From Octopus vulgaris (lineage: Eukaryota), in contig OX597817.1 in assembly GCA_951406725.2 (NCBI GenBank), positions 174,964,001-175,028,000 on the forward strand: a stretch of 64,000 nt of DNA, in the 5' to 3' direction. Made by a program: the position numbers and the translations under genes. Under the pieces are notes generated by a model that did no database searches, was not told where the DNA came from, and saw only the letters and a program-made list of their open reading frames with translations. Below are positions 13,448-13,665 of this stretch, in pieces. Numbering within the stretch: the first letter of the stretch is position 1; each line of letters opens with the position of its first letter.

Positions 13448-13665
13448 CCGGAGTAAACACATAAATGTGAAACAAGGTGGAAAAAAGAGTACTCAAATAC
13501 CAGTGGTAGAGTAATATGCTTTATTTAAAGCAGCAGAAAATTCAACAAAACCTGTTACTCTGAGTTTCACGTTCCCGTTCGTCGGACAGTTTTTGCTAGT
13601 CCAACGAACGGGAACGTGAAACTCAGAGTAACAGGTTTTGTTGAATTTTCTGCTGCTTTAAATAA
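13448..13665 (-). mobile_element. Penelope-like terminal fragment with 67-bp inverted repeat, inside (TA)n
   Basis: Arms 13521-13587 and 13599-13665 (1 mismatch); contains a hammerhead motif; (TA)n on both sides. Confidence 0.75.
13547..13593 (-). ncRNA. Minimal type I hammerhead ribozyme motif (CCGACGA core variant)
   Basis: AAAACUGU-CCGACGA-ACG(GGAA)CGU-GAA-ACUC(A)GAGU-A-ACAGGUUUU; stems I, II and III all pair; GUA cleavage triplet. Confidence 0.7.

What the first reader, a model, noticed from the sequence alone, without database searches (positions are those of the whole stretch)
13448..13665. Second, sequence-unrelated palindromic mini-element with a minimal CCGACGA-core hammerhead
Seen: the minus strand of 13547-13593 reads AAAACUGU CCGACGA ACG-GGAA-CGU GAA ACUC-A-GAGU A ACAGGUUUU. 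All three helices pair, but U4 of the core is C. Stem III is nearly palindromic with a 1-nt loop. The inverted plus-strand copy has CCAACGA, the only mismatch between the arms, and lacks most of stem I, so only one orientation looks competent. Known: minimal Penelope-associated hammerheads with tight stem III are thought to cleave as dimers. Inference: this is a core-variant ribozyme family.
Basis: partly seen in the sequence, partly recalled or inferred. Interest (0 to 1): 0.72.

Follow-up and report, generated by a model that had tools for sequence, protein, structure and literature searches.

The report
Truncated Penelope-like retroelement ends with hammerhead
This palindrome is two back-to-back, heavily shortened tail ends of a Penelope-like jumping gene sitting in a TA repeat, each carrying that element's own hammerhead motif, whose one-letter core change is shared by an older branch of the family and likely weakens self-cutting.

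Summary
The minus strand of 13547-13593 reads exactly as described, and the arms differ only at CCGACGA versus CCAACGA.

It is not a separate kind of mini-element. It is one copy of a repeat with 8,934 genomic matches to the hammerhead pattern, against 0 for the reversed control.

The repeat is the 3'-terminal ~150 nt of a young, abundant Penelope-like element (PLE). [quoted passage not shown]

The palindrome is the usual PLE double insertion: two inverted, 5'-truncated copies joined head to head. One arm carries the ~70-nt "tail" and the other stops early.

The hammerhead is the PLE's own pLTR ribozyme, with a short palindromic helix III.

CCGACGA is not private decay. It is the majority core of this copy's older, ORF-less subfamilies: 22 of the first 100 arms, 62 of 100 in a sister subfamily, and 4 of 4 in a ~76% relative. 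ORF-linked copies carry canonical CUGAUGA in 86 of 100.

Cleavage was not tested. A U4C hammerhead is already known from a viroid. I class this as a new member of a known kind, of modest interest.

Other notes of this scan on this genome concern a different, split-core hammerhead.

The parts
13366..13447 (.). (TA)n microsatellite on the left of the insertion, the target sequence.
   Evidence: In the alignment of 30 copies, TA-type repeats abut the element on both sides in nearly all copies.
13448..13518 (-). The PLE 'tail': a 71-nt 3' extension, read on the minus strand as CAUAUUACUC...CUCCGG. It is present on only one of the two arms. In tandem PLE copies it runs on directly into the 5'UTR of the next unit.
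   Evidence: L106 reverse complement 746-812, followed by the 5'UTR and an ATG; 24 of 24 pairs in which both ends could be classed have one long and one short end.
13519..13599 (-). Long arm: the last ~80 nt of the PLE 3'UTR, starting at CUAGC and ending at ...AAAUAAAG. It contains the hammerhead motif.
   Evidence: BLAST of the element onto PLE copies L099-L116. The query's 1-152 is the 3' end of elements that carry the RT/GIY-YIG ORF.
13547..13593 (-). Hammerhead-like motif with the core CCGACGA (C at position 4). The predicted cut lies between 13556 and 13555.
13588..13600 (.). Head-to-head junction of the two copies. In this copy it has lost about 11 nt, namely the AAAAACTG of the plus-strand arm.
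   Evidence: junction variants among 30 copies; upstream strings.
13600..13665 (+). Short arm: an inverted copy of the same 3'UTR end that stops at ...TTTAAATAA before the tail. Its hammerhead remnant has the core CCAACGA (C4 plus G5A) and a truncated helix I.
   Evidence: CCAACGA sits on the short arm in 12 of 13 classed cases.
13666..13785 (.). (TA)n/(CA)n microsatellite on the right of the insertion.

Best explanation
The stretch is a double insertion of the 3' end of a Penelope-like retrotransposon (PLE) into a (TA)n microsatellite, and its hammerhead motif is that element's own pLTR ribozyme, here in a subfamily whose core has C instead of U at position 4, which likely weakens or abolishes self-cleavage.

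Shown by the calls:
- The 152-nt unit (CUAGC, hammerhead, ...AAAUAAAG, ~70-nt tail) is the 3' terminus of ~3.4-kb elements. [quoted passage not shown]
- The long elements show the same layout as the mini-element. They have two inverted 5'-truncated copies joined head to head, a direct pseudo-LTR, one end with the tail and one without, and TA repeats outside.
- CCGACGA is the majority core of older, ORF-less subfamilies.

Inferred from published PLE biochemistry (Frangieh et al. 2024): the PLE protein would nick both strands of the TA repeat. Each 3'-OH would prime reverse transcription at one of two internal start sites about 70 nt apart, giving the long and the short end. The two cDNAs would then be joined at their far ends.

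Inferred from 5'-end clustering: many arms begin 10-13 nt upstream of helix I, so the template was probably a short RNA starting inside the pLTR.

Inferred from the shared arm asymmetry (CCGACGA on the long arm, CCAACGA on the short arm): this particular mini-dimer lineage was then copied as a unit by the PLE machinery.

A read-through transcript of the whole palindrome would fold as a ~70-bp hairpin, not as a hammerhead.
For: Family and ends:
- One search found 368 first-look candidates, of which 40 were scored. About 35 were full-length at 87-100% identity, and 5 matched only positions 1-152.
- sharp ends in 30 of 30 aligned copies, with TA repeats outside.
- the 152-nt unit occurs alone between TA repeats.

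Link to a PLE:
- One search showed (-,+) pairs of motifs 3-4 kb apart.
- these pairs enclose RT/GIY-YIG ORFs arranged as inverted 5'-truncated copies (L100 arms 1018-2676 and 4284-2674).
- 85 scored copies at 96-100% amino-acid identity, many with 727-aa open frames.
- a 711-aa ORF.
- the L106 layout is inverted arm, direct pLTR (98% identical to the 3'UTR), tail, 5'UTR, ORF, 3'UTR, (TA)n.
- 1,867 motifs are joined to the PLE 3'UTR 27-mer (control 0).

Hydra-clade features were read on the translation (RWK, DKT, Cys linker, CxxC, CxH). They were compared with section 11 of Craig et al. 2021 (PMC8557442), which also reports canonical hammerheads and (TA)n insertion for that clade.

Ends: 24 of 24 classed pairs are long plus short.

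Core counts:
-, first 100 arms: CTGATGA 45, CCGATGA 25, CCGACGA 22, CTGACGA 4, CCAACGA 2, CCAATGA 2.
-, first 100: CTGATGA 86, CCGATGA 11, and one each of CCAATGA, CTGACGA and CCGACGA.
-, first 100: CCGACGA 62, CTGACGA 17, CCAACGA 9, CCAATGA 5, CTGATGA 3, CCGATGA 2, CTAACGA 2.
- 4 of 4 CCGACGA.
- In the sample of 125 arms, 0 of 19 CCGACGA and 0 of 14 CCAACGA arms are joined to the PLE 3'UTR.

Fold support: other families in this genome keep the core while all three helices change with pairing kept.
- Helix I: CUGU/ACAG, UUGC/GCAG, CUUC/GAAG, CCAC/GUGG.
- Helix III: ACUC.GAGU, ACAG..CUGU, ACAAUUGU.

Literature:
- Cervera and de la Pena 2014 (PMC4209133, parts 1-2 read) describe minimal hammerheads in PLE pLTRs, including pairs 100-700 bp apart on opposite strands attributed to truncated PLEs.
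- Frangieh et al. 2024 (PMC11167929, main text read) report cleavage and extension of both strands, two internal RT start sites that explain the tail, and AT-rich targets.
Against: - No Rfam hammerhead model matches, even for canonical-core copies.
- The 57-nt motif is not more stable than shuffles (z 0.24 for the window copy, -1.35 for a canonical copy).
- Pfam gave no hit for the ORF at E up to 10. RT and GIY-YIG therefore rest on motifs read by eye and on relatives whose precomputed Pfam labels include PF01541. The clade assignment uses no reference sequence.
- The 10.1-11.1 pair is A-U here, and A.G or A.A in the other subfamilies. It is not the G-C that Cervera and de la Pena call highly conserved.
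- Helix II is only 2-3 bp.
- Frangieh et al. saw no strand difference in RT start sites in vitro, whereas here the pairs are always long plus short.
- No RNA ends, strand or cleavage product could be seen.
- The counts of core types were made by hand on the first 100 rows (one chromosome) of each list.
Confidence: 0.85

Rival explanations
1. A self-standing family of core-variant (C4) hammerhead ribozymes. On this reading, palindromic mini-elements use a functional CCGACGA ribozyme, cleaving as dimers, for their own life cycle.
For: CCGACGA is the majority in several older subfamilies and in a ~76% relative. It has persisted despite lying in two hypermutable CpGs. These subfamilies are ORF-less (0 of 33 arms joined to the PLE 3'UTR) and appear to copy as units. 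A U4C viroid hammerhead keeps enough activity in vivo (Perreault et al. 2011, passage read).
Against: The unit is the 3' end of a PLE, so it is not independent. ORF-linked copies have the canonical core (86 of 100). In the dimer the short arm carries G5A, and a read-through RNA folds into a 70-bp hairpin. Hammerhead catalytic mutants did not affect PLE insertion in vitro (Frangieh et al. 2024), so amplification does not show activity.
Confidence: 0.12
2. A foldback or MITE-type DNA transposon, or a hairpin small-RNA gene, in which the hammerhead resemblance is chance.
For: It has a long perfect inverted repeat, TA flanks like those of TA-targeting DNA transposons, and sub-threshold hits to microRNA hairpin models (mir-196, 31.9 bits against a gathering score of 55.4). 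The hairpin energy is -127 kcal/mol with z -21.6.
Against: The outer ends are not inverted repeats, because a 71-nt unique tail sits on one side only. The unit continues into a retroelement ORF in thousands of copies. The arms show 5' truncation and microhomology junctions typical of reverse transcription. The core and all three helices are kept across diverged families.
Confidence: 0.02
3. An animal non-LTR retrozyme: a tandem hammerhead repeat expressed as small circular RNA.
For: It is a type I hammerhead with a short helix III in an invertebrate genome. Retrozymes are proposed to derive from PLE pLTRs (bioRxiv 10.64898/2026.07.22.740005, abstract read).
Against: No head-to-tail tandem arrays were seen. 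Copies are single units or inverted pairs. No circular junction was seen in the contigs laid, though contigs are poorly suited to show one.
Confidence: 0.03

Closest known systems
Minimal hammerhead ribozymes in the pseudo-LTRs of Penelope-like elements (Cervera and de la Pena 2014, PMC4209133)
   Same: It is a type I motif in the pLTR/3' region of a PLE with a short palindromic helix III, which suggests action as a dimer. There are thousands of mostly truncated genomic copies, including pairs close together on opposite strands. Sequences fall into consensus families with compensatory changes.
   Different: Helix II is very short (2-3 bp plus a GNRA-like loop). The 10.1-11.1 pair is A-U, A.G or A.A rather than G-C. 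Whole subfamilies carry C at position 4.
Hydra clade of C-terminal-EN Penelope-like elements (Craig et al. 2021, PMC8557442, section 11)
   Same: It has a single ORF with a C-terminal GIY-YIG nuclease and the RWK and DKT motifs. It has a Cys-rich linker, CxxC and CxH near the end, hammerhead motifs, and insertion into (TA)n. The clade is reported from molluscs among other hosts.
   Different: The element is about 3.4 kb, whereas the paper gives 'generally <3 kb'. The linker reads C-x7-C-x5-C rather than CxCX5C. The clade was assigned from motifs only, not from a tree. Copy number here is very high and the copies are young.
PLE 'tail' and double-strand priming (Frangieh et al. 2024, PMC11167929; Poseidon of Anolis)
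   Same: There are two alternative 3' ends separated by a fixed stretch that is contiguous with the next unit. Targets are AT-rich. Insertions are consistent with priming on both DNA strands.
   Different: The tail is about 70 nt here rather than 30-40 nt. Pairs are always one long plus one short end (24 of 24), whereas in vitro no strand difference was reported.
Natural U4C hammerhead variant of a viroid (cited in Perreault et al. 2011, PMC3088659)
   Same: It has the same core substitution, C for U at position 4.
   Different: That case is a replicating RNA pathogen shown to remain infectious. Here the substitution is a genomic retroelement subfamily consensus with untested activity.

Membership tests
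Hammerhead ribozyme (type I, PLE minimal type) | Core strand C3 U4 G5 A6 N7 G8 A9. | tested here: not met
   The window copy reads CCGACGA on the long arm and CCAACGA on the short arm. The feature is met in other members of the same repeat family: CTGATGA in 45 of the first 100 arms and in 86 of 100 ORF-linked arms.
Hammerhead ribozyme (type I, PLE minimal type) | G12 A13 A14, the A15.1-U16.1 pair, and H17 that is not G. | tested here: met
   GAA at 13568-13566, A15.1 at 13565, U16.1 at 13557, A17 at 13556.
Hammerhead ribozyme (type I, PLE minimal type) | Three helices around the core, kept by compensatory change. | tested here: met
   The helices pair in this copy. Across families in this genome, helices I, II and III change while pairing is kept. 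This is a qualitative comparison of 4-6 families, not a statistical covariation test.
Hammerhead ribozyme (type I, PLE minimal type) | G10.1-C11.1 closing pair of helix II, called highly conserved by Cervera and de la Pena 2014. | tested here: not met
   The pair is A-U in the window's subfamily, A.G in the CCGATGA subfamily and A.A in the CTGATGA subfamily.
Hammerhead ribozyme (type I, PLE minimal type) | Match to a curated covariance model. | tested here: not met
   No Rfam hammerhead hit at gathering score or at E up to 10, for the window copy or for a canonical copy. My reading is that the Rfam hammerhead models poorly cover PLE minimal hammerheads; this is inferred, not checked.
Hammerhead ribozyme (type I, PLE minimal type) | Site-specific self-cleavage. 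| not testable with these tools
   Only contigs of runs of uncertain kind were available, and they showed no ends.
Penelope-like element (C-terminal EN, Hydra-like) | [quoted passage not shown] | tested here: inconclusive
   The 711-aa ORF has RT-like and GVVY...YTG motifs when read by eye. Pfam gives no hit at E up to 10. Among the 996 relatives found, precomputed Pfam labels include PF01541 GIY-YIG, for example on P0002.
Penelope-like element (C-terminal EN, Hydra-like) | Pseudo-LTR from partial tandem copies, with an adjacent inverted 5'-truncated copy. | tested here: met
   In the L106 reverse complement, 110-746 matches 3550-4189 at 98% in direct orientation, and an inverted arm occupies 1-109. 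Large inverted pairs occur in L099-L102.
Penelope-like element (C-terminal EN, Hydra-like) | Tail extension at only one end of the insertion. | tested here: met
   24 of 24 pairs in which both ends could be classed have one long and one short end. The sample held 125 arms, some of them unclassed.
Penelope-like element (C-terminal EN, Hydra-like) | Insertion into (TA)n, together with the Hydra motifs (RWK, DKT, no CCHH, modified Cys linker, CxxC, CxH). | tested here: met
   TA flanks are seen. The motifs were read on the translation and compared with the text of Craig et al. section 11. No phylogeny was made, and absence of CCHH was not checked rigorously.
Animal non-LTR retrozyme | Head-to-tail tandem repeats of 170-400 nt, each with a hammerhead, giving circular RNA. 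| tested here: not met
   Copies are single or inverted pairs. No tandem arrays appear in 125 arms or in the position lists. Circular RNA is not testable here.
MITE / foldback DNA transposon | Terminal inverted repeats at both outer ends, with a target-site duplication. | tested here: not met
   The left outer end is a unique 71-nt tail and the right outer end is the arm. The inverted repeat is internal.

The most novel reading that the evidence does not exclude
The C4 (U4C) core was the master-copy state of this PLE lineage through several rounds of amplification. It is the majority in the ~76% relative, in the helix-III central-U subfamily and in the window's subfamily. Today's canonical CUGAUGA in the ORF-bearing subfamily arose from it by two CpG-to-TpG changes. 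If so, there are two possibilities. Either a U4C hammerhead works in vivo in an animal retroelement, perhaps with protein help. Or a PLE lineage spread to thousands of copies without a competent ribozyme, which would be a natural experiment on what PLE hammerheads are for.
Probability: 0.3. Interest if true: 0.5.

Novelty: new member of a known kind. Interest (0 to 1): 0.3.

Why it matters
It removes a candidate 'new ribozyme-bearing mini-element' by tying it to a known system, namely PLE pseudo-LTR hammerheads and PLE double, inverted insertions.

What remains of interest is the family history. Whole subfamilies with C at the U-turn position amplified, while the present ORF-bearing subfamily has the canonical core. 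This bears on the open question of whether PLE hammerheads need to cleave for the element to move.

The strict pairing of long and short ends, and the clustered 5' ends, are also clean genomic read-outs of the unusual PLE insertion mechanism.

Tried and rejected
- Rfam scans found no hammerhead family for the window (gathering), for 13400-13700 (E up to 10) or for a canonical copy. Only generic hairpin hits below threshold appeared.
- Earlier notes of this scan held nothing for this sequence or place. The genome-wide notes concern a different, split-core hammerhead in Naiad/HERO elements.
- RNA evidence: no RNA holder is listed. Contigs of four runs of guessed kind were laid. They are many short pieces of the family and show no ends, strand or cleavage site, so nothing can be concluded about expression.
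- A GIY-YIG family search found another abundant PLE family with 781-aa open frames. Its 3' region is unrelated to this element by blastn, and tblastn with this element's ORF did not match it.
- The first 'long' copies of the second family (L064-L068) proved to have only TA/CA microsatellite between their arms and no ORF.
- Pfam on the ORF gave no hit.
- MAFFT alignment of the tails of four families shows clear homology only between this family and its ~76% relative. For the others, short blocks only.
- The idea that the arms are a tail-to-tail pair of plus-strand units was dropped once the unit was found at the 3' end of the ORF-bearing element in the opposite sense.
- Subfamily ages rest on small, pattern-selected samples (n = 25, 8, 11) and are biased toward low divergence.

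Full report
1. What is in the sequence

It has helix I (CUGU/ACAG, extended by A-U pairs after one mismatch) and the core CCGACGA. Helix II is a 3-bp stem with a GGAA loop. It is followed by GAA, helix III (ACUC-A-GAGU), A17, and the 3' strand of helix I.

The stretch lies in a 74-nt inverted repeat, 13514-13587 against 13599-13672, 95% complementary. Inside the element the arms differ only at the base that makes CCGACGA on one arm and CCAACGA on the other (printout). TA microsatellite lies on both sides.

Rfam finds no hammerhead here at gathering score or at E up to 10. The 57-nt motif is no more stable than shuffled sequence (z 0.24). The whole 218 nt folds as a ~70-bp hairpin of -127 kcal/mol (z -21.6).

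2. It is a copy of a large repeat family

A search of the window's own genome (2.8 Gb, 227 contigs) gave 368 first-look candidates. Of these, 40 were scored. About 35 were full-length at 87-100% identity, and five matched only positions 1-152 at 98-100%.

An alignment of 30 copies with flanks shows sharp ends...(TA)n-AC|CGGAG... on the left and ...TTTAAATAAAG|TAT(AT)n on the right. The centre is variable: GCTAG|TCC; GCTAGAAAAACTG; GCTAGCAAAAACTG; GCTAGTTTTTTTCTAGC.

The window copy has lost about 11 nt at the centre, which is why its plus-strand motif lacks the 5' half of helix I.

The 152-nt unit also occurs alone between TA repeats (L031).

A degenerate pattern across helix I, the core, helix II and GAAACUC has 4520 + 4414 genomic matches. 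The same pattern read backwards has none.

3. The unit is the 3' end of a Penelope-like element

In the list, several (-,+) pairs of motifs lie 3-4 kb apart. Four such regions (L099-L102) share 3-4 kb of sequence with ORFs. They are built as two inverted, 5'-truncated copies joined head to head; in L100 the arms are 1018-2676 and 4284-2674.

A 507-aa piece of the ORF finds 85 scored places at 96-100% amino-acid identity, many with 727-aa open frames.

One copy (L106) has a 711-aa ORF from the first ATG. Read on its coding strand, it consists of:
- an inverted arm (1-109), joined at a CTGT microhomology;
- a direct partial copy of the 3'UTR (110-746, 98% identical to 3550-4189);
- the ~70-nt stretch that forms the unique 'head' of the mini-element (to CTCCGG at 812);
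- with no break, the 5'UTR and then the ORF (880-3015);
- the 3'UTR, ending ...AAAATAAAG at about 4186, followed by (TA)n.

The hammerhead motif sits about 85 nt before that end, in the sense of the ORF. The mini-element unit, read on the window's minus strand, is therefore the last ~80 nt of the 3'UTR plus the extension known in PLEs as the 'tail'.

Pfam gives no hit for the ORF. RT and GIY-YIG therefore rest on motifs visible in the translation and on relatives: 996 proteins at E <= 1e-5, some with precomputed PF01541.

The translation shows RWK, DKT, a Cys-rich linker before GVVY...YTG, and CxxC and CxH near the end. Craig et al. 2021 list these features for their Hydra clade. That clade has canonical hammerheads, inserts into (TA)n in almost all families, and occurs in molluscs among other hosts (PMC8557442, section 11 read). 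I made no tree, so the clade is likely but not shown.

4. Why it is a palindrome

In a sample of 125 arms from 91 loci, every pair in which both outer ends could be classed has one long end (with tail) and one short end (stopping at AAAUAAAG). That is 24 of 24 pairs: 19 mini-pairs and 5 pairs with kilobases between the arms.

This matches the published picture of PLE insertions: pseudo-LTRs, an adjacent inverted 5'-truncated copy, and a tail at only one end (Craig et al. 2021, passages read). It also matches the biochemistry of a Poseidon PLE, whose protein cleaves and extends both DNA strands at AT-rich sites. That protein starts reverse transcription at two internal sites, and the stretch between those sites is the tail (Frangieh et al. 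2024, PMC11167929, main text read).

Cervera and de la Pena 2014 already noted pairs of minimal hammerheads 100-700 bp apart on opposite strands and ascribed them to truncated PLEs (PMC4209133, parts 1-2 read).

The steps of nicking, priming and joining are inferred for this element, not shown.

Two details go beyond the papers I read:
- The 5' ends of arms cluster 10-13 nt upstream of helix I in 56 of 125 arms. Another 30 of 125 run on into the 3'UTR and few lie between. The count is approximate because CTAG is palindromic. This suggests a short template RNA that starts inside the pseudo-LTR.
- In the window's closest relatives, CCAACGA sits on the short arm (12 short, 1 long) and CCGACGA on the long arm (14 long, 3 short). 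The dimer with this asymmetry was therefore probably copied as a unit.

5. The core variant

Hand counts on the first 100 rows of each list (chromosome C1 only) give the following.

| Set | Core counts in the first 100 rows |
|---|---|
| All arms | CTGATGA 45, CCGATGA 25, CCGACGA 22, CTGACGA 4, CCAACGA 2, CCAATGA 2 |
| Arms joined to a 27-mer that includes PLE 3'UTR (1,867 matches, control 0) | CTGATGA 86, CCGATGA 11, one each of CCAATGA, CTGACGA, CCGACGA |
| Sister subfamily with U at the centre of helix III (1,378 matches, control 0) | CCGACGA 62, CTGACGA 17, CCAACGA 9, CCAATGA 5, CTGATGA 3, CCGATGA 2, CTAACGA 2 |

The last spectrum is what decay of two CpGs from CCGACGA would give.

A relative of about 76% identity with the same layout (L032) has 4 of 4 strict matches with CCGACGA.

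In the 125-arm sample, none of 19 CCGACGA arms and none of 14 CCAACGA arms is joined to the PLE 3'UTR. By contrast, 27 of 60 CTGATGA arms are.

The majority sequences of the three main subfamilies differ at only six positions of about 150. Mean divergence from the subfamily's own majority is 0.7% (CTGATGA, n=25), 0.8% (CCGATGA, n=8) and 1.7% (CCGACGA, n=11). These samples are small and pattern-selected.

So CCGACGA is a subfamily consensus, not private decay, and it is probably older than the canonical core of the ORF-bearing subfamily. More distant families in the same genome have U4, so the deeper polarity is open.

The 10.1-11.1 pair is A-U in the C4 subfamily but A.G or A.A in the others. 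Each subfamily therefore departs from the textbook motif somewhere.

6. Is it a ribozyme?

For the fold: the motif sits where PLE hammerheads sit. The core is canonical in ORF-linked copies.

Other families with the same architecture keep the core while all three helices change with pairing kept. These include the window's second element at 19366-19582, one in L003, one in L026/L025 and one in L016/L080.

Against: no curated model matches. Helix II is minimal, G10.1-C11.1 is absent, and nothing here shows cleavage.

Published work bears on this. PLE minimal hammerheads cleave poorly in vitro and probably as dimers (Cervera and de la Pena 2014). One PLE hammerhead needed the element's protein, and its catalytic mutants did not affect insertion in vitro (Frangieh et al. 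2024). A U4C viroid hammerhead is much less active in vitro yet sufficient in vivo (Perreault et al. 2011, PMC3088659, passage read).

The amplification of C4 subfamilies is thus compatible with either a tolerated variant or a dispensable ribozyme.

7. Verdict

The thing itself is a known kind: truncated, inverted PLE ends with the PLE's own hammerhead, in a family not described in the papers I could search. A search for 'hammerhead ribozyme' plus 'octopus' found only Craig et al. and unrelated papers.

Other notes of this scan call the genome octopus-like. I did not test that.

I rate interest at 0.3. The residual value lies in the history of the core and in the clean genomic signature of the PLE insertion mechanism.

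Noticed in passing
window 19366-19582: A second element has the same architecture: (TA)n, a ~70-nt head, perfect 68-nt arms meeting at GCTAG, and AATAAA before (TA)n. Its hammerhead motif has the canonical core CUGAAGA, helix I CUUC/GAAG and helix III ACAG...CUGU. It has 1,322 first-look genomic candidates and many 100%-identical 140-nt single units. No ORF-bearing parent was found in the loci sampled.
   Followed up: partly
L003 2413-2459 (-), L026 1114-1165 (-), L025 about 1049-1100 (+), L016 1064-1130 (+), L080 2955-3021 (-): Further hammerhead families with canonical cores and palindromic helix III (ACAAUUGU, ACAGCUGU) lie near TA repeats. Two of them sit in inverted-repeat mini-elements. 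The L026 family also has a C4 variant (CCGAUGA) in L025, so C at position 4 recurs in an unrelated family.
   Followed up: partly
L075 and other loci (for example G000:C16:20838796): Another very abundant GIY-YIG retroelement family has many intact 781-aa open frames (6,136 first-look candidates). Its 3' region has ~100-nt repeats containing TGATGACGTC. It is unrelated to the element studied here by blastn and tblastn.
   Followed up: partly
window 39094-39372: A block of overlapping imperfect inverted repeats, about 280 nt at 72-82% complementarity, was listed by the repeat finder. It was not examined.
   Followed up: no
L066 5001-7725 (G000:C1:15762896-15772895): A unit and an inverted arm of the second family are separated by 2.5 kb of TA/CA microsatellite with no ORF. 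This suggests the microsatellite expanded at the centre of a former palindrome.
   Followed up: partly
L002 2488-2889 (-): A fragment is 34% identical to the nuclease end of the PLE ORF studied here. It is probably a remnant of a related, older PLE.
   Followed up: no
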